Part shown: positions 8,327-52,340 of the stretch, in pieces
How positions within the stretch are numbered: position 1 is the first letter of the stretch
Layout of the letters: each line of letters opens with the position of its first letter
Assembly (NCBI GenBank): GCA_025999275.1
Contig: AP024680.1
Coordinates: 419,578 to 483,577, forward strand
Reading direction: 5' to 3'
DNA length: 64,000 nucleotides
From: Patescibacteria group bacterium
Lineage (GTDB): Bacteria > Patescibacteriota > Microgenomatia > UBA8517
Notes under the pieces: model-generated
Database searches by the model: none
What the model saw: the letters and a program-made list of their open reading frames with translations, nothing else
Told to the model about the DNA's origin: nothing
Position numbers and translations under genes: made by a program

Positions 8327-9517
8327 ATGATAAATCTTATTAAAAGAATTTCTATATCTGAATTGCTGGTGGTGGTTTTTTTATTTACACTGCATCTTTT
8401 TTTTGTTTTTTTTACTAAATCTAATCTTGGTTTTATAACACTTTTTCCTAAAAACCTTTTCCTCTTTCAGTTATTGGAGATAAGCTTTTCTAATCCCTCC
8501 TTTTTTATCTATATTGTTAGCTTTTTGAATTTTTTATTGATTTTTTGGTTGGCTAATATCTTTTTTGGTAAATCGGGCTTTTTATATCCCTTGATTGTTT
8601 ATTCATTTTCTCCTTGGATTTTTTATTCTGTTGCTTTTAATTCTCATTATGTTTTTTTGCTATTTATAGTTTTGCTTATTATAAGTGGAATTGTGTTTGT
8701 TGAAAAAGGAAAAAGAGGGGCTTTGTTCTTGCTTTTCTTTGCCATTTTTTTAGGTATGGTGAGCGATTTCTTTCTGTTTTTCCTAATTCCTGTTTTCTTT
8801 ATTTTGTATTTAATAATTTTTGGCAGTGAGTCTGTAAGAAAATTTATTTATCCCACAGTTTTCTCACTTTTTGTTTTATTTGTTTTCCTTTTTTTCTTCT
8901 TGTTTAAATTGAGACCCGGTTTTTTTGCAATTGCAGCCAATGAATTTGGAATTTTTGACGATCCTGGTTTTATGAATATGGTAAATACCTATAGGGGAGA
9001 ATCTTCACAAGAAGGTTTTGTTTTCCTGTCTCGTCTTGTTGAAAATAAGTATTTTCTCGGCCTTGAATTTTTAATTCTTAGGTTTCTAAGTTTTATAACA
9101 CCAGCTACTTATTTTACATCGCAAGAGAGGTTTTTTGGTTTTTCTTTCAGTCCACCTATCTTTATTGGTTTTCTGATTCCCTTTTTGTATGGTCTTTACA
9201 GACTTATTTCTGATAAAAAAGCTAGAAAATTTTTGTTTTTGAGTCTTATTTTAATTCTTCCTTCTTTTTTTTCTTCTTTATCAATCAACCTTTCTCGTTT
9301 GATTATTTTTTCTCCTATTATAATTTTTGCAATTTCTTATGGTTTTATTGGCTTATTAAATTTTAAGAAAAGTAAAGCACCAGTTGTCCTGGTTTGGATT
9401 AGTATTTTTCTTCTTATTTTTCAATTGTTTTTGACTGTTTATGATATTAAGTTAAAAGAAAAGGAGAGGTTTTTAAGGTACTATAACTTTGATAGCAGTT
9501 ATAAAATCAAAATATGA
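8327..9517 (+). CDS. polytopic integral membrane protein, function unknown
   Basis: 396 aa, almost entirely hydrophobic helices; embedded in glycosylation operon. Confidence 0.5.
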   Translation: MINLIKRISISELLVVVFLFTLHLFFVFFTKSNLGFITLFPKNLFLFQLLEISFSNPSFFIYIVSFLNFLLIFWLANIFFGKSGFLYPLIVYSFSPWIFYSVAFNSHYVFLLFIVLLIISGIVFVEKGKRGALFLLFFAIFLGMVSDFFLFFLIPVFFILYLIIFGSESVRKFIYPTVFSLFVLFVFLFFFLFKLRPGFFAIAANEFGIFDDPGFMNMVNTYRGESSQEGFVFLSRLVENKYFLGLEFLILRFLSFITPATYFTSQERFFGFSFSPPIFIGFLIPFLYGLYRLISDKKARKFLFLSLILILPSFFSSLSINLSRLIIFSPIIIFAISYGFIGLLNFKKSKAPVVLVWISIFLLIFQLFLTVYDIKLKEKERFLRYYNFDSSYKIKI

Positions 9518-11158
9518 AGATTAAAAAAAGAACGACCTTAATATTACTGGCTATAACTTTGATCGCTGCTTTTTTAAGATTTTACAAAATAGATAGAAAT
9601 CCTCCTAGTTTGACTGGTGATGAAATTTCTTTTGGCTATGCAGCTTACTCTATTTTGAAAACTGGTAGAGATGAATCTGGAAGATTCTTGCCACTTGTAA
9701 TTCAATCAATTGGTGATTACAAAAATCCTTTGCCAGCATATTTGATGGTTGTATCATTTAAATTTTTTGGAGTGAATGATTTTGCAGTTAGATTCCAGAA
9801 TGCACTTTTTGGGACATTAACAGTTTTTGTTTTTTTCTTTTTTCTTTTTTATCTCTTAAAGAATGATAAGCAAGCTTTATTGGGTAGTTTCTTTTTGGCT
9901 TTATCTCCATGGCATATTTTTTATTCTCGTTTTGCTTACGAACCATTGATTGCTAGTTTTTTTTGCTCTTTTAGGTATATGGTCTTTTATGAAGATGCTT
10001 GATAGCAAAAGCGTTAAATTTGCCTTCCTATCATCATTTTTTTTGATTCTAACCATGTATACAGGTTTTGCTCAAAGGTTATTTGTACCTGTTTTCTTCT
10101 TCTTTCTTGTTTTGTTTAATTTAAGAAAGTTGTTTAAGGTTAAAAAGATATTTTTAATTTTTTCTTTTTTATCATTCTTGTTTGTTTTGCCGCTAATCTA
10201 TGTCTCCTTATTTCAAGGAGCATCTACTAGATTTAAAATGGTTTTTATAGCTAATGATATAAATTATGTTCGTTATGTTATTTTTGGTTATGCAAGCCGT
10301 TTTATTGACTATTGTTATCTTTTCTTCTTCTGGATTAAAAGATATTTAAATTATTTACAACCTAGGTTTCTATTTTCAGATGCTTTGCAGATGGTTTTAC
10401 CAGGAAATATTGGATTAGGAATTTTATATCCTTTTGAGGGTTTGTTTTTGGTTTTTGGCATATTTGAGCTTATAAAAAGAAGAATTTTACATAAGGATAT
10501 GCTTTTAATTTGGCTTTTTACCGGTATAGTTCCTGATTCTATAACAAACAATGAGCAACATGCGGGTAGACTTCTTCATATAGCTCCACTTATATTTACT
10601 ATTACCACCTTAGGAGCAGTAAGTTTATGGCGTCTTTTAAATAAAAAAGTTAAGGGTATTAAAAGTTTTTTTATTTTATCTGTTCTTGTTGCCTTTTCTG
10701 TTTTAAATATTCTGTTTGCTTGGCTCTTGTTTAGAGTTCATTTTCCTTATCAAAAGAGTGAAGCTTTTGATGAGGGTTGGAGAGAAGTTGTTTATTCGGT
10801 AATGAAATATCAGGATAATTATGAAAAGATTATCTTTGATATCAGAAGGGGTGTTGATGGCCCATATATGGTGAGCAATCCTCATATGTATTTGTTGTTT
10901 TACTCCAAATATGATCCATCCAAATATCAAACAATAAAGAAAGTATTTAATGTGTATGGTGATAGTGAACCTTACTTTGCTTTTGATAAATATTCTTTTG
11001 GGTATATTAATTGGTACAGAGATTCTAAATATAAAAATACTCTTTTGGTAGGCAGTCCTTGGAGTTTCCCTAAGGAGGAAGATTTGGGAAATAAATTGAT
11101 TGAAAAGATTTATCTTTCGAACGGCAAACCCGCTTTTTATCTAGTTTCCACTGAATAG
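9514..11158 (+). pseudogene. GT-C PMT/ArnT-like paralog 4, interrupted by +1 frameshift inside a T8 homopolymer (9957-9964)
   Basis: ORF 9514-10002 carries the N-terminal 'RFYKIDRNPPSLTGDEISFGYAAYSILKTGRDE' motif and ends 'ASFFCSF...'; ORF 9950-11158 (TTG start in track) continues the paralog alignment ('ALLGIWSFMKMLDSK' matches 'FALMWVILGMIYLVKGF' of paralog 1); removing one T from the T8 run fuses the two into a single ORF of about 565 aa. Confidence 0.7.
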
Positions 11159-35828: not shown

Positions 35829-37394
35829 ATGTTTAATTTATCCTATCTTACTTTTTCTGATGCGGCGAAGTTTGCTGATTTGGCAAGGAATTTTGTTTTA
35901 GGAAGAGGGTGGGGTTCTTCTTTTTCTTTCTTTTCTCCCTCTATTTTCCAACAGTTGGAAAAAACTCTTTTTGATATGGGTATTTTTCCTTTGACTCCTT
36001 TTTTTATTTCTTTATCTTTTAGAATTTTTGGAATCTCTGATTTTGCAGTAATTGCCACTTCATTTTTCTTTTATGTTTTATCTTTGGTTTTTACATTTTT
36101 ACTTTCAAGAAAGATTTTTAAAAGCAGTTTAATTGGTTTTCTTTCTTTGCTGGTTGTTGGTTTTAATCTTAATCTTATTGATTATGCAACAAGCGGGGCG
36201 TCGGAGGCTTTGTTTATCGCTGAGATATTGCTTCTTTTTTATCTTCTTTCTTTCAAGAAGAAAGTTTTTGATTTATTTTCTTTACTGGTTATTGTACTGA
36301 TGTATTTTACTCGAGCTCATGCATTTATTTTTATAGCAGGCGCTTTACTTTTTTGGCTTCTTTTACGATTTGATGTTAAAAAATCTCTTTTTTATTTTTC
36401 TTTCATTTTGATTTTGGGTCTTTTATTTGATCGTTTTGTTCTTTCCTCTTTATCTGGCAAGTTTTTCATTTATTCAATTTTGGGAGGGGGGAAGTATGCA
36501 GTTTTACAACACAATTCTTCATGGGCGGTTTCTGACACCTTGCGAGGTCTTCCTCGCCAGTCTTTTGATTTGATTTCTGTTTTAAAGAAAGTTTTTTACA
36601 ATCTTTACAACTTCTATAAATTGATGCCACAGATTATGAATCCTTATTTATTTGCTCTTTTTCTCATTGGTCTTTTTGCTTGGGGTAAAGATAGGCTGCA
36701 AAATTCATTTAAGATTGCCTCATTGTTTATGGTGTTTTTAACTTTTTTGGTTGCTGCCGCTTCTATTCCGTTTTTCCGCTATATTCATCCAGTTGTTCCA
36801 CTAGTTTATATCTTGGCAGTAGGAACACTTGTAGAGATAATTTCTAAATTAGAAATTCTAAATTCTAAACTAAAGATATCAAAACAAAAATTAGTTATTT
36901 TTTCTTCCTTATTTCTTATTCTGTTTTTTGGGGTTGGGCAGAGCGTTGGCGTTCTTCTTCTTGATAGACGTTTTGAAAGGAGAGTTTATAATTTTGATAA
37001 GCCCCCAGTTTATGTTTTGCTTTCAAAAATTATTAAGGAAAATACAGATCCTAACGAGGTTATTTTGACTAATCTTGATACTTGGGGCAGTTGGTATGGG
37101 GAAAGGAGAACTGTTTGGTTTCCATTAACACCGAAGCAGATAATTAATCCTGAAAATGGAAAAATTCCTTTTGACGCTATTTATCTTACAAGCTACAAAA
37201 TGGACGACCCAAATTATTATATGGGAAATGAGTGGAGACTTATTTTTGAAAACCCCCAAAGTCCTGAAAAATGGAATTGTGAAGGGTGTGATCAGATTGC
37301 AAAGGAATTTACCCTAAAGGGTGTTTATAAAGTTATTCCTGACGATGATTATGAAAGACAAGGTGAAATTAGTATTATTTTAGTTAAGAATTAA
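35829..37394 (+). CDS. GT-C fold membrane glycosyltransferase, ArnT/PMT_2-like
   Basis: 'FSDAAKFADLARNFVLGRGWG' resembles ArnT-type acidic/Arg motif; polytopic with C-terminal soluble domain. Confidence 0.55.
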   Translation: MFNLSYLTFSDAAKFADLARNFVLGRGWGSSFSFFSPSIFQQLEKTLFDMGIFPLTPFFISLSFRIFGISDFAVIATSFFFYVLSLVFTFLLSRKIFKSSLIGFLSLLVVGFNLNLIDYATSGASEALFIAEILLLFYLLSFKKKVFDLFSLLVIVLMYFTRAHAFIFIAGALLFWLLLRFDVKKSLFYFSFILILGLLFDRFVLSSLSGKFFIYSILGGGKYAVLQHNSSWAVSDTLRGLPRQSFDLISVLKKVFYNLYNFYKLMPQIMNPYLFALFLIGLFAWGKDRLQNSFKIASLFMVFLTFLVAAASIPFFRYIHPVVPLVYILAVGTLVEIISKLEILNSKLKISKQKLVIFSSLFLILFFGVGQSVGVLLLDRRFERRVYNFDKPPVYVLLSKIIKENTDPNEVILTNLDTWGSWYGERRTVWFPLTPKQIINPENGKIPFDAIYLTSYKMDDPNYYMGNEWRLIFENPQSPEKWNCEGCDQIAKEFTLKGVYKVIPDDDYERQGEISIILVKN

Positions 37395-37400
37395 ACCAGT

Positions 37401-39044
37401 GTGAATTTCATGTCAGTTGTTTTTATAAAATTTATAAAATTTTACAATTCTTTTAGAAATGTATTCTTGGTGTTTTTTGTAGTAGTTATTTTTATTTTTT
37501 TTAGCCTTTATATTTTTTCCCAAGATAGAACTACTGGTGATGCTGCATCACATCTTCTTTTGGCTGTTGCGCCGATAATTAAAATAGGTGCTCCTTATAA
37601 AGATTACTGGGATATAAAACCTCCTATGATGCCTTTAATCCTTTTTGTTTGGAGCAAAATATTTGGATTTGGAATAGTTTCAATTAGGCTTATTAATATA
37701 CTTTTGTCAGCACTTAGCGTTTTCCTGACCTATTTTTTGTACAAAAGGTTTTTTAAAAAGCCTGTATTTGAAATAGTTTTCTTAAGTACTTTATTAATTC
37801 TTCTTTCACCGTTTCTTCACTCAATTATGCTTCCAACTGAAATTTTAGGTCTTTGTATGTCTTTATTGGCTTTATTATTCCTAATTCAATCAAAAAATCA
37901 GTTTTATAAATTTTTTATTTCAGGCCTACTTTTCTTTTTTTCTAGTCAGTCAAAAGAACCTTTTTCTTTTACTGTAATAGCTGTGTTGCCATTTTTTGTT
38001 TATTCCTTTTTAATCAGCGGTATTAATGGATTTATAAAGAATTTTCTATTATTTCTGGCCGGTCTTTTTTTTGGGTTTGTAATTATTTTTATGTATCTAT
38101 ATTTTATGGGATCAGTTAGTTCCTACAGAGAAGTGTTTATTGCAAAAAGCATTGCTTACCCGCTTAATTATAGCAATGTTTCTAAAAATTTTATTTTAGG
38201 TTTAGAAGCTGCTGAAAGAACTTTTACTGAATTCTCATCAGGTATTTCTATTCTCATTGTTTTCTTTTTGGTATCTCTTTTTATGGTAAACAAATACAAA
38301 AAACTGTTATTTTTTGATCGTGTAAGGTTAAAATTAAAATTTAATTCTTTTTATGTCTTAGATAAAAACATGTTGGTAAGTTATTCAGCGTTGTTTTATG
38401 CAATTGGTTCGTTTCTAGGTTTTGGTCTTGGAAAAGTATTTGGATCTCATTATTTAATTCAAGTTGTTGTTCCATTTTATATAATTTCAGGATTTATTAT
38501 CTCGTCTATACTTGGTAGAACAAGTTTTCTTATACATAAATCAAAAATACTTTCTTTTATATCTTTGATATTGTTTTTGTTTTCAATAGTTATAATCCTT
38601 CCCAAGAGGCAGTATTTGAAGAGTTTTTTGTCTGTTAATTTTAATTTTGTAATGAAAGACAGAGTCTACGATTTTGAGGAAAGAATTACTGATATCACAA
38701 CAAATGATCAGTGTATTTTAAGTGTATATGGTTGGGGAGCTGGGGAAAATTATTTATATTCTGGGAGAAGGTCTTGCACAAGATTTTTTTTACCAAATAT
38801 TGTTAGGGAAGAGTGGCAGCGGGAAGAATATAGAAGTAGTATTTTGAAAAATCCTCCAGCAGCCATTATATATCAAACGAATGCTTCAGATATGGATGTA
38901 AAAAGATTTGAGTATCAGGTAATAAATATTGGTAATATAGTAAACAATTGTTACAAGAGAGATATTGAAAATAATGAAATCTTTGTTCCTGCGGTATTGA
39001 ATATCAATGATTTAAGAGAATGTATAAAAGACAATTCCACATAG
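37401..39044 (+). CDS. GT-C fold membrane glycosyltransferase, PMT_2-like
   Basis: 'TGDAASHLLLAVAPIIKIGAPYKDYWDIKPPMMPLI' (D..H...KPP loop typical of PMT_2); polytopic. Confidence 0.55.
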   Translation: MNFMSVVFIKFIKFYNSFRNVFLVFFVVVIFIFFSLYIFSQDRTTGDAASHLLLAVAPIIKIGAPYKDYWDIKPPMMPLILFVWSKIFGFGIVSIRLINILLSALSVFLTYFLYKRFFKKPVFEIVFLSTLLILLSPFLHSIMLPTEILGLCMSLLALLFLIQSKNQFYKFFISGLLFFFSSQSKEPFSFTVIAVLPFFVYSFLISGINGFIKNFLLFLAGLFFGFVIIFMYLYFMGSVSSYREVFIAKSIAYPLNYSNVSKNFILGLEAAERTFTEFSSGISILIVFFLVSLFMVNKYKKLLFFDRVRLKLKFNSFYVLDKNMLVSYSALFYAIGSFLGFGLGKVFGSHYLIQVVVPFYIISGFIISSILGRTSFLIHKSKILSFISLILFLFSIVIILPKRQYLKSFLSVNFNFVMKDRVYDFEERITDITTNDQCILSVYGWGAGENYLYSGRRSCTRFFLPNIVREEWQREEYRSSILKNPPAAIIYQTNASDMDVKRFEYQVINIGNIVNNCYKRDIENNEIFVPAVLNINDLRECIKDNST

Positions 39045-39233
39045 TTTTTGGTTTGTATTTATATGTTTTAATCAGTTTTAGGATTCATTTTCAAAATATT
39101 TAGTTTTTTATTTACGAAGAGGTGATCTTTAATTTATAAATGGTATTTATTAAGTTACTGTTTTAACAACATAATTTTTATCAGTGGATTAGAAAAGCAA
39201 AAAGCTTTTACTAATAATCTATAATTTAATTAG

Positions 39234-40541
39234 ATGGTAAAAAGAATTATTGTTTATCTATCTTCTGTTATTTTTATTTTGGTCTCTTTTTATTTTATTT
39301 TTACAACCTCGCCTTTTGTTAGATATTGGGTTGATGATTTTTGTTCTGCGGCTTTTCTTAAAAACAATGGCTTTTGGGGTGCTCAGATTGGCTGGTGGAA
39401 AAGTTGGACTGGAAGATATTCAGCAGTTTTCTTTACTGATATTTTTGAGTCAATTGGTCCTTGGGTTGTAAAGTTTTTACCCATTTTAATATTATTTTTA
39501 TTGTCAAGTTCTTTTTATAAAGTTTTTAAAAATATTGTTTTTACCTTTCTTTTTGTTGTTATTTTATTGGTAAATGCCCCAAATATCGTTCAATCTTTTT
39601 ATTGGCAAACTGGGTCGCTAAACTATACAGCACCGTTTATTTTTTTAGGTATCTTTCTTTCTCAACTATTTTCAGATAGAAATAAAAGTATATTTTTGCC
39701 TTTTATTTTAATGTTTGTTGCTGGTGGTTTTTCTGAAGCTTTTGCTCTTGGTGCGTTGGTTTTTTTATTTTTTGCTTTACTGGTTAGTTTTGGTTGGTGG
39801 CCAGGGAAGGTTGTTTTGGAAAAAAGAAAAATAATTATTGCTGGCCTAGTCGGGGTTTTGCTTTCTTTAGTTTTAATGTCTTTTTCGCCCGGTAATGTGG
39901 CGCGAGGAGGAGAGATAATTAAGCAGGATAAAATATTTTTTGTTATAAAATCTTCTATTTTGGGAACAAAATGGTTCCTTTTTAGAATGCTTTCTATTAA
40001 AACTTTTATTTTTTCTCTTTTTTCCTTATTTATCTTTGTTTATTTTATTTTTAAGAAACCTAAATTTGGGCCAAGAAGATCGTTTATTCTTATCTTTTTG
40101 TCTTTGCTTGCGATAGTGTTTACGACAATGGCAGTTTTGGCTTCCGGCTTTTATGCAATGGGCATTCTGCCGCCCGAGCGAGCTTTGTTTGTGGCCACTT
40201 CTATGATTTTAGGAATTTGGGTTTTTATTTCTTGGGTTTTATCTGGGATTTTGAGCAATTATTTAGTTAGTGGAATTAGAAAGTTGTTTAGTTTTGTATT
40301 GATTTTGTTTTTGCCATTATTGTTTGCCTCATTGACTATTTTAACTTTTTCTCATTGGAAGAGCATAAAAGAGGAAGTGAGATCTTACGCTTTAAGTTGG
40401 GATAAAGAGGTAAATAATTTGCCTAAAATCAGGAATATAAGGTCTGTTGGGGGATTAGATAGTTTTACTGATAATAAAGGTTGGGTTTCATCTTGCGTTG
40501 CTAATTATTTTGGTTATAAGGAAATTGAAATAATTGAGTAG
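39234..40541 (+). CDS. polytopic membrane protein, unknown function
   Basis: 435 aa, many TM helices. Confidence 0.45.
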   Translation: MVKRIIVYLSSVIFILVSFYFIFTTSPFVRYWVDDFCSAAFLKNNGFWGAQIGWWKSWTGRYSAVFFTDIFESIGPWVVKFLPILILFLLSSSFYKVFKNIVFTFLFVVILLVNAPNIVQSFYWQTGSLNYTAPFIFLGIFLSQLFSDRNKSIFLPFILMFVAGGFSEAFALGALVFLFFALLVSFGWWPGKVVLEKRKIIIAGLVGVLLSLVLMSFSPGNVARGGEIIKQDKIFFVIKSSILGTKWFLFRMLSIKTFIFSLFSLFIFVYFIFKKPKFGPRRSFILIFLSLLAIVFTTMAVLASGFYAMGILPPERALFVATSMILGIWVFISWVLSGILSNYLVSGIRKLFSFVLILFLPLLFASLTILTFSHWKSIKEEVRSYALSWDKEVNNLPKIRNIRSVGGLDSFTDNKGWVSSCVANYFGYKEIEIIE

Positions 40542-40547
40542 AGTTAT

Positions 40548-42072
40548 TTATATTTTGTAGATTTTCGCGATAATTGCATTGTGGAATTCTATATCTTTAA
40601 TTAGATTTTTGTCCTCAATAAATTTTAGAACTTGACTTTCTGGATGTTGCTTGGCAAAGTAAGTTTCAAGAATAATATATTCTGCTTCTAAGAAATTATA
40701 GGTAAGATTAAAATCAGAGTAATATCTTACTGCTTCTGGACAACCTGCTACAAAAATACTTCCTTTTATATTTTCCTTTTTAAGATATTCAACGGCTAGT
40801 CTTGAACTTGCACAGAAACCAACCATGTCATATTTTTGGGCCCCTTTTGGCCCACCTGCGAGGTAGTTGTAGTAAAAGTAATAATCGGGATTAAAAGAAA
40901 GTGGGAGAATTAAATTAAATGTGGTTAAAATAAGGAAAATGAATTTCAGACTTTTGTTTTTTTAGTATTTCTAATATTTTTAGCCATCCGGATGCAGAGG
41001 CTATAACAAACCATGGCAAGAGTGGAAGAGCATATCTTATCCCCAGTTTTTTATTTGAGATACTTATTATGATTAGAAAAATGAGGACATAGGTGATTAT
41101 GGTGATATTTTGTTTTTTAGTCTTTATGTTTTTGTTTTTAATCAAGTAGAGAATTGAGATTAAGTTGACAAAAAATCCTAGTATTAATATTTCAGGCATT
41201 CTTATTAAGTACTGGAATAAATAGAAATCAAACGGGGGATTGGTGGTGATTTTTCCTCTGTAAAATACTGTCATACCGTCTTGAACAAGGTGAAATTGCC
41301 TTATAAGATATTCGAATATAGAATATATTGGTTTTTCCCAAGAATATGGCCACATGATGTTGGTGAAAACTAAGAAAGATATTGTGTTAATTGCTAATTG
41401 TTTGCTAGGGAAATTATTTCTTTTTTGATATAGATCATAAACTAACCAACCTATTATTGGTAATATACCATTTGGTTTTGTGAGAAAGGCTAGTGATAAG
41501 AATATTCCAGGTATAAAACTAATCTTATTTTCTTTTGAGTAGTATAAGTATGAAGTTAGGGCCGTAAAACTGAATAGGGTTAAGAAACTATCGTTGATAG
41601 ACATCCTGTCAAATGCGATGGCGATAGGATTTATGAGGTAAAATATGGCTGATATCAATGCCAATTTTTCTCCTATGAGTTTGGAGCCGAAGTAAAAAAT
41701 AAAAACTGGAGTTAGAGAGGATATTATTGCAATGGGCAATCTTGAAGCGAAGATATCATTAAATATCTTAAGGCTGTACTTTCCGTTTCCTGCTAGAAAG
41801 AATTGTGAAATACCACTAAGTAAAGTTAAAGGAAGCGCTATAGCTTCTGTATCGTTTGTTTTTTTCCACCAGGCATTTTCAAAGAAATTTTTGTTGGCGT
41901 GAATTAAAGCGTAGATTATTTCTTTTCCTCTTACTGTCCATGTTATTTCATCCGAGTATATTGAGGTGTTTTCTAGATCAATTAACCTTAGGCTTAAACT
42001 TAATATGTATATGAGAGCTATTAATATTATTTTTCTTTTTTTAAGAAGTATGCTGAATCTACCTTTTTTCAT
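40548..42072 (-). pseudogene. GT-C PMT/ArnT-like paralog interrupted by frameshift inside an A7 (minus-strand) homopolymer at 40957-40963
   Basis: ORF 40915-42072 encodes N-terminal GT-C part ('SIYSDEITWTVRGKEI'); frame of ORF 40548-40826 is open up to 40961, immediately after the A7 run; deleting one A gives '...ILKN KSLKFIFLILTTFNL...' and a single ORF of about 513 aa, the length of intact paralogs. Confidence 0.6.
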
Positions 42073-42149
42073 TTTGTTTTTATGTTTTTATTTTATACCC
42101 TTTAGGTTATGAAGAAGCAATATTGATGGTAAATAATTTATCTTTTGAC

Positions 42150-42170
42150 TGACAAGGTCCGTCTTTGTCA
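42150..42170. repeat. 21-nt hairpin repeat, copy 1 (TGACAAGGTCCGTCTTTGTCA)
   Basis: identical copy at 42448-42468; the two flank small ORF 42211-42438. Confidence 0.75.
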
Positions 42171-42210
42171 ACTTGTTTTGTTAGAAAGATAAAACTATAT
42201 TTAAAATATT

Positions 42211-42438
42211 ATGGAGCTAAAGAAAAGTCTTAAAGCTGATGCTGTTGCCAATCTTTATAGAGCTTCTATTTATTTTGCTAAAGGTAATGAAAAGATGGGT
42301 AATTTTTTTGTCAGTAGAGCAAGTAAGTTCATTGATCTTGGGAGTTTAAGAAGACAAATCTCTTACTTAAGAGATAATAAAATTATTGCAGAGAAGGTGT
42401 TAGATTTTTATTTACGTCTCAAAAGGAAGATTTGGTAA
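42211..42438 (+). CDS. small hypothetical protein (75 aa) flanked by identical hairpins
   Basis: ORF only. Confidence 0.3.
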   Translation: MELKKSLKADAVANLYRASIYFAKGNEKMGNFFVSRASKFIDLGSLRRQISYLRDNKIIAEKVLDFYLRLKRKIW

Positions 42439-42447
42439 AGTTGTGGG

Positions 42448-42476
42448 TGACAAGGTCCGTCTTTGTCATTTTTTAA
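42448..42476 (+). terminator. hairpin repeat copy 2 followed by T-run; putative intrinsic terminator
   Basis: TGACAAGGTCCGTCTTTGTCA then TTTTTTAATTT. Confidence 0.45.
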
Positions 42477-42526
42477 TTTACATCTTCAGTTTTTTGCTTA
42501 AAGGTAGATAATGTTAAAATATAAGA

Positions 42527-43120
42527 GTGAAAAGATTTCTTTTTGTTGATGGAACCAATCTTTACGCGGGGCAGTTTTCCCTATTTGGCCCAGATAAGTA
42601 TCTTGTATTTTCTGATTTTTTAAGATTTATCGAGGATGCTATAGGTAAAAAATTTGATAAGATATTTTTTTATGCTTCTTATTCTCCTAGAAGTAAAAAG
42701 CTTACCGAGAAAGAAAAGATTTATCTTAAAAATGAATACTTTTTTTATAAAAGTGCCAAATTAACCCCAAAATTATCTTTTTTCCGTGGATATCGTTCTA
42801 GAAAAAGTGGAAAAGAAAAAGGGGTTGATGTTAAACTTGCGTGTGATTTAGTCTCTTTATCTATTACTGGAAAGTATCAAGAAGGTTTTATTTTAAGCGG
42901 AGATGCTGATTTTTTGGAGGCTCTCTTTATATCAAAGAAGTATTCTAAAGGAATTAGGCAAAATATAATTTGCTTGGAAAATAAAATAATGTATCGAGGT
43001 TCTTATTTTTTTCCAACTTATGTAATCAGATTTACCGGAAAGAATTTAAAAATTAAAGAGAAGTATTACAAATTTATTTATTTGGATCAGAAATTTTTGG
43101 TTAGGGATCTTAATAATTAG
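42527..43120 (+). CDS. NYN-domain (LabA-like) protein
   Basis: GTG start; 'KRFLFVDGTNLYAGQF...' matches N-terminus of NYN/LabA domain proteins. Confidence 0.55.
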   Translation: MKRFLFVDGTNLYAGQFSLFGPDKYLVFSDFLRFIEDAIGKKFDKIFFYASYSPRSKKLTEKEKIYLKNEYFFYKSAKLTPKLSFFRGYRSRKSGKEKGVDVKLACDLVSLSITGKYQEGFILSGDADFLEALFISKKYSKGIRQNIICLENKIMYRGSYFFPTYVIRFTGKNLKIKEKYYKFIYLDQKFLVRDLNN

Positions 43121-43124
43121 AAAT

Positions 43125-43161
43125 CCCGACATACAAGTATGTCGGGAAGGTTGTTTTTATT
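43125..43161 (+). terminator. intrinsic terminator
   Basis: perfect 9-bp stem CCCGACATA/TATGTCGGG with CAAG loop, followed by GTTGTTTTTATT. Confidence 0.7.
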
Positions 43162-43169
43162 AAAACATA

Positions 43170-44438
43170 ATGGAAGAAAAAAAGCAAGTCTTAAAATCAA
43201 TGATTTTTTCTTCGACTGCCAAGGATACTTATATTCTTTTTTTTAGCAATGTTGCTACCGCTTTTCTGGGTTTTGTTTTTACTTGGTTTGTTGCGAGAGC
43301 TCTAAGTGTTTCTGATTTTGGTGTTTTCTCTTCGGTCAACAATCTTGCTTTAATGCTTTCTCCATTAGTTGATCTTGGCGTGAGCTCAGCTTTAATCAAT
43401 TTCATTGCCTATTTTCAGGCAAGAAATGAATACAAAAAGACTTTTGAGTATGTTAAGGCAGGACTTGTTATTCGATTTGTTATTTTGCTTTTAGTTTCAA
43501 TCTTTCTTTTTGCTTTTAGGGGCTTTGTTTCAGATAAGCTTTTGGCTGGTGGAGGTGTTTATTTAGTTTATTGGACAATAATTATTCTTCTTGGTCTTGT
43601 TTTCTCAAGTTTTGTTACTTCTGTTCTTCAGGCTTATAAGAAATTTTTTAGGTCGATGATTTCTGAAGTTTCTTATTCTTTTGGCAGAGTGATTTTTGTT
43701 CTTATTTTTGCTTTTAATGGTTTGACTTTAACAGGCTCTTTAAGCGCTTTTGCTTTGGCAGGTTTAGTTTCTTTGGTGATTACTGTTTTTGTTTTGGGTT
43801 ATGGCTTTTTGAAATCGCATCCACCAAAAAGTATTTATCTTGATTTGCTTAGATTTTCCGGGTGGCTTGGGGTAAATAGGATTTTGTCTTCTATTTCAGG
43901 TAGGGCTGATGTTCAAATGCTTGCAGCTCTTTCTGGGGCTGTTGCTGTTGGTTATTATTCCATCGCTGGAAGACTCGCTTTTTTTATTGCTGTTTTGTCT
44001 TCAAGTTTATCGGCAGTTATTGCTCCCCGTCTTGCCTCTTTTGGCAATAAAGAGAGAGAAAGGGCGTATATTTTAAAATCTCTTTTGGCAATAGTTGGGG
44101 TTAGTTTTGGAATAATTTTATGGGTAATTTTTGCCAAACCTTTTATACTTCTACTTTTTGGAGAAAAGTATCTTAATTCTGTTGGTATCTTTCAGGCCTT
44201 GGCCTTGGCTATGATCCCATTTTTGTTTACCTCTCCTTCTGTTTCAGCGATTATTTATGCAATGAAAAAGCCAAAAATTATTGGCGTTTTTTCTATTTTT
44301 CAGACAGCTGCAATTTTAATTTTGAATTATCTTTTGATTCCCAAATTTGGCGCTTATGGACCAACTATAACACTGGCGGTTACAAATACTGTTCTAATGG
44401 CGTATAGCTGGGTGGTGGTGGTTAGATACTATAGATAA
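43170..44438 (+). CDS. Wzx-like oligosaccharide flippase (MOP superfamily, Polysacc_synt)
   Basis: 422 aa, about 12-14 TM helices, N-terminal region typical of polysaccharide biosynthesis/flippase proteins. Confidence 0.65.
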   Translation: MEEKKQVLKSMIFSSTAKDTYILFFSNVATAFLGFVFTWFVARALSVSDFGVFSSVNNLALMLSPLVDLGVSSALINFIAYFQARNEYKKTFEYVKAGLVIRFVILLLVSIFLFAFRGFVSDKLLAGGGVYLVYWTIIILLGLVFSSFVTSVLQAYKKFFRSMISEVSYSFGRVIFVLIFAFNGLTLTGSLSAFALAGLVSLVITVFVLGYGFLKSHPPKSIYLDLLRFSGWLGVNRILSSISGRADVQMLAALSGAVAVGYYSIAGRLAFFIAVLSSSLSAVIAPRLASFGNKERERAYILKSLLAIVGVSFGIILWVIFAKPFILLLFGEKYLNSVGIFQALALAMIPFLFTSPSVSAIIYAMKKPKIIGVFSIFQTAAILILNYLLIPKFGAYGPTITLAVTNTVLMAYSWVVVVRYYR

Positions 44439-44450
44439 GATAAAAGCTGA

Positions 44451-44486
44451 TAATGGTTAATGATTGATGACTAATGGTTAATGATT
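44451..44486. repeat. heptamer array: two direct copies of TAATGGTTAATGAT; second copy contains the start codon of the 4HB gene
   Basis: perfectly complementary to 44877-44890. Confidence 0.75.
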
Positions 44487-44870
44487 AAGAAAAAGAATAA
44501 TCTTTATAGGACTGTTGAAGACGTGCCTGTGTGGCAATTGTCGCATCAGCTAACTCTTAGAGTTTATAAATTAACAGAGGCCTTTCCTAGGGCTGAGGTA
44601 TATGGTCTAACCTCTCAGATTAGGAGGTCTGCCAGTTCTGTGTCAGCGAATATATCTGAGGGTTTCTATAGGAATAGCACAAAAGAGTTGATAAATTTTC
44701 TATATAACGCGAGAGGGTCGTTGGGAGAAACGCTTTATCACATAAGGCTTGCAAGAGATTTGGGTTTATTAAATTCTTCTGATTTTGAAAGTCTTAAAAA
44801 TGGCTATAATTTACTTGGTAGACAATTGAATGGATGGATTAGGAGTCTTAAATTGAAAATTAATGGTTGA
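44481..44870 (+). CDS. four helix bundle protein (TIGR02436 / 23S rRNA intervening-sequence protein family)
   Basis: 'VYKLTEAFPRAEVYGLTSQIRRSASSVSANISEG'. Confidence 0.85.
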   Translation: MIKKKNNLYRTVEDVPVWQLSHQLTLRVYKLTEAFPRAEVYGLTSQIRRSASSVSANISEGFYRNSTKELINFLYNARGSLGETLYHIRLARDLGLLNSSDFESLKNGYNLLGRQLNGWIRSLKLKING

Positions 44871-44876
44871 TAAGTA

Positions 44877-44910
44877 AAGATCATTAACCATTAACCATTG
44901 ACCATTGACT
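44877..44910. repeat. inverted heptamer array (ATCATTAACCATTAACCATTGACCATTGACTATT)
   Basis: reverse complement of the upstream array and of 19831-19852. Confidence 0.75.
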
Positions 44911-44917
44911 ATTATTT

Positions 44918-45763
44918 ATGTCTAATTCTATCTTTGCTCATACCCTAGTAAGAAATGAGGAGCGGTATTTGTGGTTTGCTATTTCTTCAGTCGTTGATTA
45001 TGTTGATAGGGTTTTTCTTTGGGATACTGGAAGCACGGATAAAAGCCTTGAGATAGAAAAGGAAATAAAAAAGAAGTGGCCTGGGAAAATTGACTTAAGA
45101 CAAATTGGGGAAGTTGATGCAAATGAGTTTACCAGTGTCAGGCAAAAAATGCTTGATCAATCAGATTGTGATTGGGTAATGATTTTGGATGGTGATGAAG
45201 TTTGGTGGAAAGATTCAATAAAAAGAGCGATTGATCTTATAAATGAGAAGGGAAACGAGTTGGATTCTTTGGTTCACAGATACTACAACTTAGTGGGGGA
45301 TATATTTCATTATCAGGAAGAGAAAGCGGGACGTTATGTTATTGACGGCAAGCAGGGAAATTTAACTGTTAGGTTTTTTAGGCGAAATATTCCTGGTATT
45401 CATTTTGACAATCCTCATGGGACTCAGGGTTTGTTTGATAAAGATGGAGTTTTAATTCAGGAAAGAGATCCAAAAAGGAGGTTCCATTTGGATGATTATT
45501 ATCTCCACTTTACCCATCTTGTTCGCTCAACTAGCCTTATCGAAGACAAAAAAGTGATTAAGAGAAATTTAAAGTACAAATATGAGCTAGGTATTCCTTT
45601 TCCTTTAGATTTTTATTATCCAGAAGCGTTTTTTAAAGATAGGCCAGATATTGTTGAAAGTCCTTGGAGAGTAATGGATGCTTCGTTTAGGATTAGATCA
45701 TTTTTTGAAACTCCATTAAGGAAGATAAAAAGGAGGATTTGGTGGGGGAAGACTGGTTATTAG
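44918..45763 (+). CDS. putative GT-A-like glycosyltransferase (GT2/GT92-like), low confidence
   Basis: 'HTLVRNEERYLWFAISSV...FLWDTGSTDKS...VMILDGDEVWW'. Confidence 0.4.
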   Translation: MSNSIFAHTLVRNEERYLWFAISSVVDYVDRVFLWDTGSTDKSLEIEKEIKKKWPGKIDLRQIGEVDANEFTSVRQKMLDQSDCDWVMILDGDEVWWKDSIKRAIDLINEKGNELDSLVHRYYNLVGDIFHYQEEKAGRYVIDGKQGNLTVRFFRRNIPGIHFDNPHGTQGLFDKDGVLIQERDPKRRFHLDDYYLHFTHLVRSTSLIEDKKVIKRNLKYKYELGIPFPLDFYYPEAFFKDRPDIVESPWRVMDASFRIRSFFETPLRKIKRRIWWGKTGY

Positions 45764-45792
45764 ATTGTAGGCAAGAGTTTCAAGTTATAAAA

Positions 45793-47163
45793 ATGTTAGA
45801 AAAATCAGAATATACAAAAATAAATAAACGAGATGGCATTTTACTTATTGGCATTTTAGCCTTTCAGTTGTTTTTTCTTTTTAATCTTAAATTTACAGCT
45901 TGGCCGGAAATGTTAGCATGGCCTTATTTGATGATTAAGGGCTGGATGCCATATAGGGATATTGCCATAGCTCATAACCCATTATTGCTTGTTGACTTGG
46001 CAATCTTTTATAAATTTTTTGGGGTAGGCGTTTGGCAGTTAAAATTTTTTACTTGGCTCTTGATTATCTTGTCTGAGATGGTCTTGTTTTTAATTGCAAA
46101 GGAAATTTGGGGCAGGAAAGTTGCGTTGTGGTCGGTCTTGTTTTACAGCTTTTGGGTTATCTTTTATGAAGGTAATGGAATTTGGTTTGATTTTTATATG
46201 GGCATTTTGGCCTTTATTTCTTTTTACCTTGTTTATAAGAAGGATTGGTTTCTGGCGGGTGTTTTTTGGTCTTTGGCTTTTTTGTCAAAGCAAACGGCTA
46301 TTTGGTTCTTGTTCCCAATCCTGTTTGAGATTATTGTGCGACCACCTTTAAAGATTGAATCTTTAAAGATGGTTTTTGGGGCAGGTGCTGTCTTGAGTAT
46401 ATTTTTGTTTTTGCTTTGGAAATTGGGTATTTTGTTTTATTGGTGGAATTGGGCGGTTAATTTTGGGGTTTTTGTTCTTCCAAAATCAACAGGCCAAATA
46501 AAATTGCCAGGTTTTTCAGAGCTTTTTGTTTCTCTTTTTCCATTTTTTGTGTTTTTACTTTTATTCCTAAATCATAAATCTAAATTGTTAAATCTATTTC
46601 TTTGGTCTTTGGCTGGTATTCTTGGTGCCTATCCGCGTTTTGAATATTTTCATTTTCAGCCTGCAATTTTTTATCTTTCGATTGCCGCAGCTCTTGTTTT
46701 TTCGGATTTTAAAAAGATAAGTAAGATTGGGCAGATGTTTTTGATATTTTTTGTTTTGGGCAATACATTTTTGTTTGCAAGATTTTTGGAAAGGAATTTT
46801 AACAAAGAAACTAGATTTTATGAATCTGATTTTAGAAAGGTAATTGATTATGTTAGGGAAGAAACTAAACCTGGTGATTATATTTTTGTTTTGAATTGGT
46901 GGGATAGTCTTTATGCTTTAACTGAGACTATACCAGCAACAAAGCCATTAGTTCCTCAACTTGCCTGGTATCAAGAGTTTGATAAGATTCAGAAAAAAGA
47001 AGTAGAAGACATTGCTTCTATAAGGCCAAAACTTGTAGTTCTTAATTCTTATACGGATAGCGGCCTTTCTTCTTATATTCCCAAAGAGCTTTATAATTAT
47101 ATTGATAAAAACTACATTATGGTAGACGAAATTGGGGATGTAAAAATATTAAATCTAAGATAA
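45793..47163 (+). CDS. polytopic membrane protein, GT-C-like (DUF2029/GT87-like)
   Basis: 'WPEMLAWPYLMIKGWMPYRDIAIAHNPLLL'; start at internal ATG 45793. Confidence 0.45.
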   Translation: MLEKSEYTKINKRDGILLIGILAFQLFFLFNLKFTAWPEMLAWPYLMIKGWMPYRDIAIAHNPLLLVDLAIFYKFFGVGVWQLKFFTWLLIILSEMVLFLIAKEIWGRKVALWSVLFYSFWVIFYEGNGIWFDFYMGILAFISFYLVYKKDWFLAGVFWSLAFLSKQTAIWFLFPILFEIIVRPPLKIESLKMVFGAGAVLSIFLFLLWKLGILFYWWNWAVNFGVFVLPKSTGQIKLPGFSELFVSLFPFFVFLLLFLNHKSKLLNLFLWSLAGILGAYPRFEYFHFQPAIFYLSIAAALVFSDFKKISKIGQMFLIFFVLGNTFLFARFLERNFNKETRFYESDFRKVIDYVREETKPGDYIFVLNWWDSLYALTETIPATKPLVPQLAWYQEFDKIQKKEVEDIASIRPKLVVLNSYTDSGLSSYIPKELYNYIDKNYIMVDEIGDVKILNLR

Positions 47164-48240
47164 ATGAAAATTGCTTTTTTAAATATTTATAACGGTATAG
47201 TCAATAGAGGGGCAGAAACTTTTGTTAAAGAATTAGCTAGTCGTTTGACTTTAAAACACAAAGTGACTGTTTTTCAATCAGGGGGTAAAGAGGGTTTTGA
47301 AAGATATGAAGTTGAAAAGATAAATATAAATTTTGAAAGCAATAGAGGACTAAAATCTTTTTTTATTTTGCGTCGTCTTTTTCTTGACTATCAAAACAGA
47401 TCTATTTTGGTTTTTACATTAAAATCTTTACCTAAAATTTTAAAAGAAAAATATGACGTTGTTATTCCTGTTAATGGTGGTTGGATGCCGGCAATATTAA
47501 GAATTGCAACCTGGCTTTATGGAGGGAAAATGGTTATTTCGGGGCAATCGGGAATTGGTTGGGATGACAGGAACAACCTTTGGTGTTTTCCTGATGTTTT
47601 TGTAGCTCTTTCAACTTATGCCAAAAATTGGGCTAAAAAAGCTAATCCTTTTGTAAAAGTTACATATATACCAAATGGAGTTGATACTAATAAATTCAAA
47701 GATGAAAGAAAGGCAAAGAAAAAGGATAAAAGAAAAACTATTTTGGCAGTAGGGGCTTTTGTTTCTGATAAAAGGCTAAATCTTGCAATAGATGCAGTTG
47801 CAAAAATTAAGGATGCAAAGTTGATTATTGCAGGTGGAGGTGGAGATTTAAAAGAAGAAATATTTAAGTATGGAATGAAAAAACTTGGAAAGGATAGGTT
47901 TGAAGTATTAAGCGTTTCTTATGAACAAATGCCTGAGGTCTATCAGATGGCTGATGTTTTTACTCTTCCTTCAAGGTCTTCTGAGGCTTTTGGGAATGTT
48001 TTAGTTGAGGCTATGGCGACTGGTCTTCCTGTGGTGGCGACAAATGATCCGATAAGACAGGAGATTGTAGGCAGGGCTGGAATTTTGATCGACCCGACTG
48101 ATGTTGATCAATATGCAAAGGCCTTAAAACAGGCTCTTGAAAAAAAATGGGGAAATCTACCCAGAAAACAAGCGGAGAAGTTTGGTTGGGATAAAGTTTC
48201 GATTTTATATGAAGAAATATTTAAAGAGGTTTCTAAATAA
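47164..48240 (+). CDS. glycosyltransferase family 4 (GT-B)
   Basis: 'SEAFGNVLVEAMATGLPVVATN'. Confidence 0.85.
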   Translation: MKIAFLNIYNGIVNRGAETFVKELASRLTLKHKVTVFQSGGKEGFERYEVEKININFESNRGLKSFFILRRLFLDYQNRSILVFTLKSLPKILKEKYDVVIPVNGGWMPAILRIATWLYGGKMVISGQSGIGWDDRNNLWCFPDVFVALSTYAKNWAKKANPFVKVTYIPNGVDTNKFKDERKAKKKDKRKTILAVGAFVSDKRLNLAIDAVAKIKDAKLIIAGGGGDLKEEIFKYGMKKLGKDRFEVLSVSYEQMPEVYQMADVFTLPSRSSEAFGNVLVEAMATGLPVVATNDPIRQEIVGRAGILIDPTDVDQYAKALKQALEKKWGNLPRKQAEKFGWDKVSILYEEIFKEVSK

Positions 48241-50313: not shown

Positions 50314-50667
50314 TTATTTTTTCTTTGCTGCTTCTTTTAAGGATATTTCTCTTACAATCTCAGTTATTCTTTGTTCAATATTCTCAATTATAGAAAGTAT
50401 TTTGAAGATAAGCATAAAAGTGACGACGAAACCGAGGAAAATTAATGTGTTTAGATTTTCTCCCATTCCCAATTTTCCTGAGATAAAGTAAGCGAAATCG
50501 GGGAATATTGAAATTATTAGTATTATTCCCCAAATAACAAAAGTTGCCAAGAATTTTAGGATTGATTGACCGGTTTGTTTTTTTAAGAAACGGTTTATTC
50601 TTTCAATAAGCATCAGTGAAGAAAAGATAATTAAAACCCAGCGCATTATGGATATTCCTGCTATCAT
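50314..50667 (-). CDS. small two-TM membrane protein, DUF2304-like (GT2 partner)
   Basis: 117 aa, two hydrophobic helices; immediately downstream of a GtrB/ArnC-type GT2 on the same strand, the usual DUF2304 context. Confidence 0.5.
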   Translation of the reverse strand: MIAGISIMRWVLIIFSSLMLIERINRFLKKQTGQSILKFLATFVIWGIILIISIFPDFAYFISGKLGMGENLNTLIFLGFVVTFMLIFKILSIIENIEQRITEIVREISLKEAAKKK

Positions 50668-52339: not shown

Positions 52340-52340
52340 T

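What the first reader, a model, noticed from the sequence alone, without database searches (positions are those of the whole stretch)
40915..40965. Second GT-C paralog broken at an A7 homopolymer; a one-base deletion restores a 513 aa ORF
On the minus strand the N-terminal ORF reads ...LKKQKSEIHFPYFNHI* through AAAAAAA (40957-40963). The downstream ORF's frame is open from the codon immediately after that run. Removing one A yields ...LKNKSLKFIFLILTTFNLILPLSFNPDYYFYYNYLAGGPKGAQKYDMVGF..., contiguous with ORF 40548-40826. Two independent GT-C paralogs are therefore each interrupted precisely at a homopolymer, and each is corrected by a -1 change. This points to a systematic cause, either a sequencing artefact or programmed variation.
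Basis: seen in the sequence. Interest (0 to 1): 0.6.

Follow-up and report, generated by a model that had tools for sequence, protein, structure and literature searches.

The report
Frameshifted glycosyltransferase gene at an A-run
One membrane glycosyltransferase gene in a hot-spring Patescibacteria genome is split in two by a single extra A in a run of A's, most likely a young strain-specific loss-of-function mutation; this is ordinary and shows no sign of a programmed mechanism.

Summary
On the minus strand, ORF 40915-42072 (385 aa, GT-C/PMT_2) runs through A7 (40957-40963) and stops 14 codons later. Removing one A joins it to the frame ending at 40548. The repaired protein is 507 aa, not 513.

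The window is KatS3mg088 (AP024680), a circular Patescibacteria genome assembled with metaFlye from 9.6x PacBio HiFi reads. A 97%-identical syntenic contig from an Indian hot spring carries A6 and an intact 507-aa gene. The second broken paralog (T8, 9957-9964) has an intact T7 allele in another metagenome. These are the only coding indels in 14 kb of aligned sequence.

Logan, an independent k-mer assembly of the same HiFi reads, matches the window at 100% with no gaps over 33.8 kb, including both long runs. So this is not an assembler artefact. Random read error is improbable at this coverage, and the known HiFi bias shortens runs rather than lengthening them.

- **Best reading (0.6):** real, very recent +1 slippage mutations that inactivate two of about 16 redundant GT-C paralogs.
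- **Main rival (0.27):** a systematic HiFi miscall.
- **Programmed recoding or evolved phase variation:** not supported. Orthologs are unbroken, the run is not conserved, long A/T runs are depleted in coding DNA, and no RNA structure follows the run.

The parts
40548..42072 (-). The whole frameshifted GT-C (PMT_2/ArnT-like) glycosyltransferase gene. It encodes 507 aa once one A is removed from the run.
   Evidence: Repaired translation. Pfam PMT_2 45.1 bits and PMT 31.7 bits. Homologs of about 500 aa cover 97-100% of it, with a gap-free alignment across the junction. AF2 model has pLDDT 87 and pTM 0.89, and the top Foldseek hits are all GT-C enzymes (ALG9, ArnT 5f15, ALG12, STT3).
40915..42072 (-). 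N-terminal ORF as it stands in the assembly: 385 aa, of which the last 16 (from the second Lys of the run onward) are out-of-frame. GenBank annotates it as KatS3mg088_472 (BCX14789.1).
40957..40963 (-). A7 homopolymer (T7 on the + strand). This is the site of the +1 expansion; the intact allele has A6 (CTA AAA AAC).
   Evidence: L002 from SRR16606022 has A6, and this is the only coding indel in 2.9 kb at 97.3% identity. Codon view.
40915..40917 (-). Premature TAA stop reached in the shifted frame, 14 codons after the run.
40548..40961 (-). Open +1 frame encoding the C-terminal 138 aa: the last transmembrane helix (residues 373-393) plus a conserved alpha/beta periplasmic domain with the PDYYxYYNxLxGGPKGAQKYDMVGFC block.
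   Evidence: Open-frame scan. Conservation with invariant P390, N402, G407, C420, C444, E469. Secondary structure and pLDDT 85-95.
40548..40826 (-). 92-aa ATG-started remnant, annotated in GenBank as KatS3mg088_471 (BCX14788.1). It is the tail of the same gene, not a gene of its own.
9514..11158 (+). The other frameshifted GT-C paralog (KatS3mg088_441 plus _442). It is broken inside the PMT domain and encodes 547 aa when repaired.
   Evidence: Pfam PMT positions 2-154 of 245 in the 162-aa piece. An intact 547-aa allele, P0078, is on L003. It differs from that allele by 1 aa.
9957..9964 (+). T8 homopolymer. The intact allele in SRR23829991 has T7.
   Evidence: It is the only indel in 6.3 kb at 98.8% identity.

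Best explanation
Window 40548-42072 (minus strand) is a single GT-C, lipid-phosphate-sugar-dependent membrane glycosyltransferase gene. It is one of about 16 paralogs in a 64-kb glycosylation island of the Patescibacteria genome KatS3mg088.

In the Katase hot-spring population the coding-strand run A6 (CTA AAA AAC, Leu-Lys-Asn) has expanded to A7, by slipped-strand mispairing during replication. Translation then leaves the frame after Lys369 and stops 14 codons later. The product lacks the last transmembrane helix and the conserved periplasmic C-terminal domain, so it is most probably inactive.

The same kind of event (T7 to T8) has broken a second paralog at 9957-9964. Both events are very young: strain-specific loss-of-function alleles in a highly redundant, fast-turning-over gene family.

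- **Shown:** the one-base difference from intact near-identical alleles; the continuity of homology across the break; agreement of two independent assemblies of the same reads.
- **Inferred:** that the reads are right; that the truncated protein is inactive; that slippage was the mutational mechanism.
For: **Intact near-identical alleles exist elsewhere**
- P0075 (507 aa, 12 aa differences) sits on a syntenic 10.5-kb contig from the Sativali hot spring, with A6.
- P0078 (547 aa, 1 aa difference) carries T7.
- Over 14,245 aligned bases containing 113 homopolymers, only these two runs differ in length.

**The +1 alleles are in the reads**
- Logan contigs of DRR290133 are built from 31-mers seen at least twice, followed by Minia3 graph simplification.
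- DRR290133 is the Katase HiFi run.
- These contigs are 100.000% identical to the metaFlye sequence, with no gaps, over window 1-21158, 40460-42237 and 42208-53120. That span includes both T8 and A7.
- The repaired proteins do not occur in that collection.

**Random read error is an unlikely cause**
- With 9.6x coverage, independent read errors would give two or more majority-wrong runs among 134 with P <= 0.017, even at a 10% per-read +1 error rate.
- The documented systematic HiFi bias shortens homopolymers. Here both runs are lengthened.

**Slippage is a real hazard in this lineage**
- A/T runs of 7 or more and of 8 or more are strongly depleted in coding DNA relative to synonymous-codon shuffles (z = -5.5 and -6.7), whereas runs of 6 or more are not.

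**The lost domain matters**
- The C-terminal 138 aa hold the most conserved block of the family and fold confidently as part of one GT-C chain.
Against: - No read pile-up was available, so 'dominant allele in the reads' is inferred from two assemblies of one dataset.
- Homopolymer length is the main error mode of HiFi reads, coverage is low, and no short reads were used.
- Both broken alleles are in the HiFi genome and none is in the two short-read relatives. This is expected with probability about 0.25 under real mutation and 1 under artefact.
- dN/dS downstream of the break is not raised: 0.24, against 0.43 upstream and 0.23 in the neighbouring gene.
- The segment around paralog 1 differs from the intact allele by one substitution in 3.2 kb. 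If the mutations are real, they must therefore be extremely recent.
Confidence: 0.6

Rival explanations
1. Sequencing artefact. The organism really has A6 and T7, and PacBio HiFi reads systematically over-call these two runs, so every assembly of the reads inherits the error.
For: - HiFi's primary error mode is misestimated homopolymer length.
- The MAG has only 9.6x coverage and was assembled with metaFlye 2.8.3 without short-read polishing.
- Both breaks are in the HiFi genome and none is in the short-read relatives.
- There is no sign of relaxed selection downstream.
- The surrounding DNA is nearly identical to the intact allele.
Against: - An independent k-mer assembly of the reads agrees at every base over 33.8 kb, so the fault cannot lie in the assembler or polisher.
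- Independent read errors cannot reach a majority twice at about 10x.
- The known systematic HiFi bias shortens runs, and in CHM13 it amounted to about 500 sites in 3 Gb.
- 25 other runs of 7-8 in the aligned regions agree with the relatives.
Confidence: 0.27
2. Evolved phase variation. The A/T tracts are contingency loci that switch individual GT-C paralogs ON and OFF reversibly, diversifying the cell-surface glycan repertoire. The assembly caught two paralogs in the OFF state.
For: - The affected genes are surface-glycosylation enzymes, the classic targets of tract-mediated switching in Campylobacter, Neisseria, Haemophilus and Helicobacter (plus established knowledge).
- ON alleles (A6, T7) and OFF alleles (A7, T8) are both observed among near-identical populations.
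- Sequence downstream of the break remains under purifying selection.
Against: - The tracts are short (6-8 nt).
- Long A/T runs are depleted, not enriched, in the coding DNA of the island.
- The tract is not conserved in orthologs: A5 in L007 and none in L010.
- The breaks sit at 27% and 73% of gene length, with no 5' bias.
- 25 of 27 long runs compared are invariant between populations.
- No within-sample length polymorphism could be examined.
- No report of phase variation in Patescibacteria was found.
Confidence: 0.09
3. Programmed recoding. The full-length enzyme is made from the A7 gene by +1 ribosomal frameshifting or by transcriptional slippage on the A-run.
For: Lys-tRNA can re-pair on AAA in the +1 frame, and RNA polymerases are known to slip on A/T runs (established knowledge). 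The rescue window contains the run.
Against: - All 70 or more homologs, including a 97%-identical one, are single unbroken ORFs.
- The A_AAA_AAA heptamer favours a -1 shift, whereas +1 is required.
- No rare or stop codon sits at the A site.
- The downstream RNA is unstructured (MFE -1 kcal/mol, z = +0.97).
- A7 is below the run length (about 9 or more) at which transcriptional slippage is efficient (established knowledge).
Confidence: 0.02
4. A natural split gene. The 385-aa membrane part and the 92-aa tail are two separately translated, functional subunits.
For: GenBank annotates them as two proteins. An ATG exists at 40826.
Against: - The split is caused by a single base relative to an intact allele.
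- The ATG-started piece omits the last transmembrane helix and the start of the conserved block.
- No family member in the search is split this way.
Confidence: 0.01

Closest known systems
GT-C fold glycosyltransferases of the ArnT / PMT_2 (GT39/GT83-like) type
   Same: - Pfam PMT_2 and PMT hits above threshold.
- Invariant first-loop Asp-Glu (D41-E42, 'YSDEITW').
- Multi-helix membrane domain plus a C-terminal soluble domain. Foldseek top hits are ALG9, ArnT 5f15, ALG12 and STT3, with TM 0.5-0.58.
   Different: - No detectable sequence match to any solved structure, and only 10-14% identity in the fold hits.
- The small (about 110 aa) C-terminal domain with a PDYYxYYNxLxGGPKGAQKYDMVGFC block defines a Patescibacteria-centred subfamily.
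- Acceptor and sugar are unknown.
- This copy is frameshifted.
Homopolymer-slippage pseudogenes in AT-rich, reduced genomes (such as insect endosymbionts and Mycoplasma)
   Same: A single-base expansion of an A/T run inside an otherwise intact ORF, in a small AT-rich genome. The gene belongs to a redundant family.
   Different: - The run is only 7 nt. Endosymbiont cases that are rescued by polymerase slippage have about 9-10 or more A's (established knowledge).
- An intact allele still circulates in sister populations.
Simple-sequence contingency loci in surface-glycan genes (Campylobacter poly-G, Neisseria lgt, Helicobacter fut, Haemophilus lic)
   Same: A glycosyltransferase ORF switched off by a +1 change in an intragenic mononucleotide tract. 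ON and OFF alleles are found among close relatives.
   Different: - The tracts are shorter and made of A/T.
- They are not enriched and not conserved.
- No within-population switching has been demonstrated.
PacBio HiFi homopolymer-length miscalls
   Same: Same platform, with a one-base length difference at a homopolymer.
   Different: - The direction is lengthening, whereas the documented bias is shortening.
- The result is reproduced by an assembler-independent k-mer assembly.
- The runs are short (7-8 nt).

Membership tests
GT-C glycosyltransferase (PMT_2 / ArnT-like) | Sequence match to the PMT_2/PMT profile above the curated cut-off | tested here: met
   PMT_2 scores 45.1 bits against a cut-off of 26.1, and PMT scores 31.7 against 22.7.
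GT-C glycosyltransferase (PMT_2 / ArnT-like) | GT-C fold: a polytopic membrane domain followed by a soluble periplasmic domain in one chain | tested here: met
   AF2 model of the repaired protein has pLDDT 87.1 and pTM 0.89. The 18 best PDB matches are all GT-C enzymes.
GT-C glycosyltransferase (PMT_2 / ArnT-like) | Conserved acidic motif in the first extracytoplasmic loop | tested here: met
   D41 and E42 are invariant in 15 sequences. The catalytic role is inferred, not tested.
GT-C glycosyltransferase (PMT_2 / ArnT-like) | Use of a polyprenyl-phosphate-linked sugar donor | not testable with these tools
   Requires biochemistry.
Frameshifted gene caused by homopolymer slippage | Homology to full-length relatives continues in another frame directly across a mononucleotide run | tested here: met
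   Gap-free alignment across the junction. A6 versus A7 is the only coding indel against a 97.3%-identical allele.
Frameshifted gene caused by homopolymer slippage | The variant allele is present in the organism's DNA, not only in the consensus | tested here: inconclusive
   Two independent assemblies of the same HiFi reads agree. No read pile-up or second sequencing technology from this sample was available.
Phase-variable contingency locus | Tract-length polymorphism (ON and OFF) within one population | not testable with these tools
   Needs reads. Only between-population A6/A7 and T7/T8 differences were seen.
Phase-variable contingency locus | Repeat tracts over-represented or maintained by selection in the target genes | tested here: not met
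   Runs of 7 or more: 128 observed against 173 expected. Runs of 8 or more: 33 against 71. The tract is absent or shorter in orthologs.
Programmed ribosomal frameshift / transcriptional slippage recoding | The two-frame arrangement is conserved among orthologs | tested here: not met
   All homologs are single ORFs of about 500 aa, and the closest allele is unbroken.
Programmed ribosomal frameshift / transcriptional slippage recoding | A slippery motif suited to the required direction, plus a stimulatory element | tested here: not met
   A +1 shift is required, but A_AAA_AAA is a -1 heptamer. The downstream RNA has MFE -1 kcal/mol and z = +0.97.
HiFi/assembly homopolymer artefact | Platform and workflow prone to homopolymer indels | tested here: met
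   Sequel II HiFi reads above Q20, metaFlye 2.8.3, no short reads, 9.6x coverage.
HiFi/assembly homopolymer artefact | Run length is unstable between independent reconstructions of the same reads | tested here: not met
   Logan contigs are 100% identical with 0 gaps over 33.8 kb, including both sites.
HiFi/assembly homopolymer artefact | Direction of the error matches the known platform bias | tested here: not met
   The known HiFi bias is repeat shortening. Both runs here are one base longer than in the relatives.

The most novel reading that the evidence does not exclude
Patescibacteria (CPR) cells may vary their surface glycome stochastically by switching individual members of a large GT-C paralog array ON and OFF through slippage at short intragenic A/T tracts. 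In that case A7 and T8 would be OFF states of two such switches, and this would be the first contingency-locus system described in the CPR.
Probability: 0.09. Interest if true: 0.6.

Novelty: new member of a known kind. Interest (0 to 1): 0.2.

Why it matters
- **Annotation.** Two pairs of GenBank 'hypothetical proteins' (KatS3mg088_471/472 and _441/442) are each one frameshifted GT-C gene and should be flagged as such.
- **Method.** The case shows how an assembler artefact can be excluded without read access, by comparing the deposited genome with an independent k-mer assembly of the same run and with near-identical alleles in other metagenomes.
- **Biology.** It adds a small data point that the very large GT-C arrays of Patescibacteria turn over quickly: gene presence/absence differs between springs, and individual paralogs are knocked out by slippage.

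It would become interesting only if read data showed mixed tract lengths within one population.

Tried and rejected
- **Whole-window scan for other split genes.** I scanned for overlapping open frames of at least 80 codons on one strand. Every candidate other than the two sites (for example 15020/16032, 47164/48137, 51468/51719) proved to be an ordinary neighbouring gene pair from different families.
- **Search for more alleles.** The search for related loci in JGI metagenomes and GTDB genomes found no close relative. The 90% protein cluster holds only one intact allele per paralog, so tract-length variation across many populations could not be surveyed.
- **Exact look-up of the repaired 507-aa and 547-aa proteins** to detect an A6/T7 path in the Logan assembly of the source run. 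Neither is present.
- **dN/dS upstream versus downstream of the break**, as a test for decay. There was no difference in the expected direction, and the counts are small.
- **PDB sequence search** with the family profile gave no hit. The fold search was needed instead.
- **Literature search** for empirical indel rates of about 10x HiFi metaFlye MAGs. No usable number was found.
- **Promoter/terminator scan and RNA fold around the site.** Nothing exceeded the shuffled controls that bears on the frameshift.

Full report
**1. The observation**

On the + strand the window has T7 at 40957-40963, which is A7 on the minus (coding) strand. The minus-strand ORF 40915-42072 encodes 385 aa ending ...GWLKILEILKKQKSEIHFPYFNHI*.

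The +1 frame is closed by a TAA made of T40964 and the first two A's of the run. It is then open from 40961 to the stop at 40548. Removing one A gives CTA AAA AAC AAA AGT..., which reads ...LKNKSLKFIFLILTTFNLILPLSFNPDYYFYYNYLAGGPKGAQKYDMVGF... and runs into ORF 40548-40826.

Apart from that, and the detail that the frame opens inside the run rather than after it, the description is accurate.

**2. One gene, not two**

- The repaired protein matches Pfam PMT_2 (45.1 bits) and PMT (31.7 bits).
- A database search returned 73 homologs.
- In a 15-sequence alignment there is no gap at the junction. 'LKILEIL' in frame 0 and 'KNKSLK' in frame +1 align with 'LIKLIEAI KNKYLK' (P0003) and 'KNRYLK' (P0004). 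This places the frame change between Leu368 and Asn370, which is inside the run.
- The part cut off contains the most conserved block of the family, PDYYxYYNxLxGGPKGAQKYDMVGFCASS, with invariant P390, N402, G407, C420, C444 and E469.
- An AlphaFold model of the repaired chain is confident throughout (pLDDT 87.1, pTM 0.89, C-terminal blocks 85-95). The break falls between helix 345-369 and the last membrane helix 373-393, ahead of an alpha/beta domain.
- The best 18 PDB fold matches are all GT-C enzymes: ALG9, ArnT 5f15, ALG12, STT3 and AftA. No PDB sequence match was found.

**3. Source of the window**

The 385-aa ORF is identical to BCX14789.1 (KatS3mg088_472) and the 92-aa remnant to BCX14788.1 (_471).

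KatS3mg088 (AP024680) is a circular 785,860-bp Patescibacteria MAG (Microgenomatia; o__GWA2-44-7; g__Ch104c) from Katase hot-spring sediment. Its coverage is 9.6x. It was produced from PacBio Sequel II HiFi reads above Q20, assembled with metaFlye 2.8.3, with no short-read polishing.

The window is a glycosylation island with at least 15 GT-C-type ORFs plus GT2, GT4, methyltransferase, flippase and Wzy genes.

**4. The second broken paralog and the rest of the window**

ORFs 9514-10002 (162 aa, PMT profile positions 2-154 of 245) and 9950-11158 are separated by T8 at 9957-9964. T7 restores a 547-aa protein.

A scan of all overlapping open frames in the window found no further split gene. The other overlaps are normal neighbours from different families.

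The window holds 134 A/T runs of 7 or more, and 39-44% of them lie in GT-C ORFs. Two random hits would therefore both fall in GT-C genes with P about 0.15-0.19.

**5. Intact alleles exist elsewhere**

| Feature | Paralog at 40548-42072 | Paralog at 9514-11158 |
|---|---|---|
| Intact protein in the 90% cluster | P0075, 507 aa, 12 aa differences | P0078, 547 aa, 1 aa difference |
| Contig | L002, 10.5 kb, syntenic | L003, 6.3 kb |
| Sample | SRR16606022 (Sativali hot spring, India, short reads) | SRR23829991 |
| Nucleotide identity to window | 97.3% | 98.8% |
| Run in relative vs window | A6 vs A7 | T7 vs T8 |

In the DNA alignments these two one-base differences are the only coding indels. Of 113 homopolymers compared over 14,245 aligned bases, only these two differ in length, which is 2 of the 27 runs of 7 or more.

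More distant orthologs have A5 (L007) or no run at all (L010) at this codon pair.

**6. Artefact or real?**

The obvious suspicion is a HiFi homopolymer error, because misestimated homopolymer length is the platform's main error mode. Three results argue against it.

- **An independent assembly agrees.** Logan assembles each SRA run from 31-mers seen at least twice, followed by Minia3 graph simplification. DRR290133 is the Katase HiFi run. Its contigs are 100.000% identical to the window, with zero gaps, over 1-21158 (part of a 58-kb contig), 40460-42237 and 42208-53120. That is 33.8 kb in total and includes both T8 and A7. The repaired proteins are absent from that collection. The long runs are therefore the dominant allele in the reads, not a product of the Flye polisher.
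- **Random read error cannot explain it.** With Poisson coverage of 9.6 and independent errors, the chance of two or more majority-wrong runs among 134 is 4e-4 at a 5% per-read +1 error rate and 0.017 at 10%.
- **The direction is wrong for the known bias.** The documented systematic bias of HiFi reads is repeat shortening, and it affected about 500 homopolymer sites in a 3-Gb genome. Here both runs are longer than in the relatives.

Points in favour of an artefact remain:

- I could not see the reads.
- Both broken alleles are in the HiFi genome and none is in the short-read relatives.
- dN/dS downstream of the break (0.24) is no higher than upstream (0.43) or in the neighbouring gene (0.23).
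- The 3.2 kb around paralog 1 differ from the intact allele by a single substitution.

If the frameshifts are real, they are therefore very young.

**7. Programmed mechanisms**

- *Recoding.* The two-frame layout is not conserved. The required shift is +1, whereas A_AAA_AAA is a -1 heptamer. The downstream RNA is unstructured (MFE -1 kcal/mol, z = +0.97). From established knowledge, A7 is shorter than the runs on which transcriptional slippage is efficient.
- *Evolved phase variation.* Tract-mediated switching of glycosyltransferases is well known in Campylobacter, Neisseria, Haemophilus and Helicobacter. Here, however, A/T runs of 7 or more and of 8 or more are depleted in coding DNA relative to synonymous-codon shuffles (128 vs 173, z = -5.5; 33 vs 71, z = -6.7), while runs of 6 or more are not. 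The tract is not conserved, and 25 of 27 long runs are invariant between populations. The depletion suggests that long runs are a mutational burden, which fits sporadic slippage knock-outs rather than maintained switches. I found no literature on phase variation in Patescibacteria. Within-sample tract polymorphism could not be tested.

**8. Conclusion**

| Reading | Confidence |
|---|---|
| Real, very recent +1 replication-slippage mutation inactivating this GT-C paralog (and a second one by the same kind of event) in a redundant, rapidly changing glycosylation island | 0.6 |
| Systematic HiFi miscall | 0.27 |
| Evolved phase variation | 0.09 |
| Programmed recoding | 0.02 |
| True split gene | 0.01 |

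The case is ordinary. Its practical value is correcting the annotation of four GenBank 'hypothetical proteins'. A pile-up of the public HiFi reads at the two sites would settle the question.

Noticed in passing
window 1-64000: The whole window is one glycosylation island. It holds at least 15 GT-C-type ORFs (PMT_2, PMT, PIG-V-like, YfhO, DUF6056) interleaved with GT2, GT4, methyltransferases, a Polysacc_synt flippase (43170-44438) and a Wzy_C protein (58332-59828). GC is 31.4% against 35.4% for the genome.
   Followed up: partly
window 42143-42170 and 42441-42468: A 28-nt direct repeat contains a perfect 21-nt hairpin, TGACAAGGTCCGTCTTTGTCA (2 copies; 0 expected by chance). The two copies bracket a 75-aa ORF (42211-42438) with no Pfam match. 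The two Logan contigs of the source run meet with a 30-nt overlap at 42208-42237, which marks a graph branch point there.
   Followed up: partly
window 37331-39214, 42090-43205 and 45763-45881, compared with L002: Gene content of the island differs between springs. The Sativali relative lacks GT-C ORF 37401-39044, and also lacks the 75-aa ORF plus the NYN-domain gene 42527-43120. It carries an extra 411-aa gene between the homologs of 44918-45763 and 45739-47163.
   Followed up: partly
window 5960-12302, compared with L003: Divergence from the SRR23829991 relative is mosaic. There is 1 substitution in 8154-11347 (3.2 kb), against 3-6% divergence in 7460-8153 and 11348-11957. This suggests recent recombination or a sweep of the segment holding the T7/T8 paralog.
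   Followed up: no
window 11189-11881 (-): An IS200/IS605-type Y1 transposase (PF01797) lies immediately downstream of the broken paralog 9514-11158. It is also present in the relative L003.
   Followed up: no
window 51468-52339 (+): A DUF6922 (AbiEi-like) plus AbiEii nucleotidyltransferase toxin pair, a type IV toxin-antitoxin / abortive-infection module, sits inside the island.
   Followed up: no
window 44481-44870 (+): A 129-aa 23S_rRNA_IVP four-helix-bundle protein (125.9 bits) with a weaker bAvd-like match that is below the Pfam cut-off. It lies between the flippase and a GT2 gene and is conserved in L002. No reverse transcriptase was looked for.
   Followed up: no
all coding DNA of the window: A/T homopolymers of 7 or more and of 8 or more are strongly depleted relative to synonymous-codon shuffles (z = -5.5 and -6.7), while runs of 6 or more are at expectation. 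This implies selection against slippage-prone tracts with a threshold near 7 nt.
   Followed up: yes
window, + strand overall: There is a strong strand asymmetry of long runs: 106 T-runs of 7 or more against 28 A-runs of 7 or more on the + strand. This reflects nearly all genes being on the + strand and rich in Phe codons.
   Followed up: no
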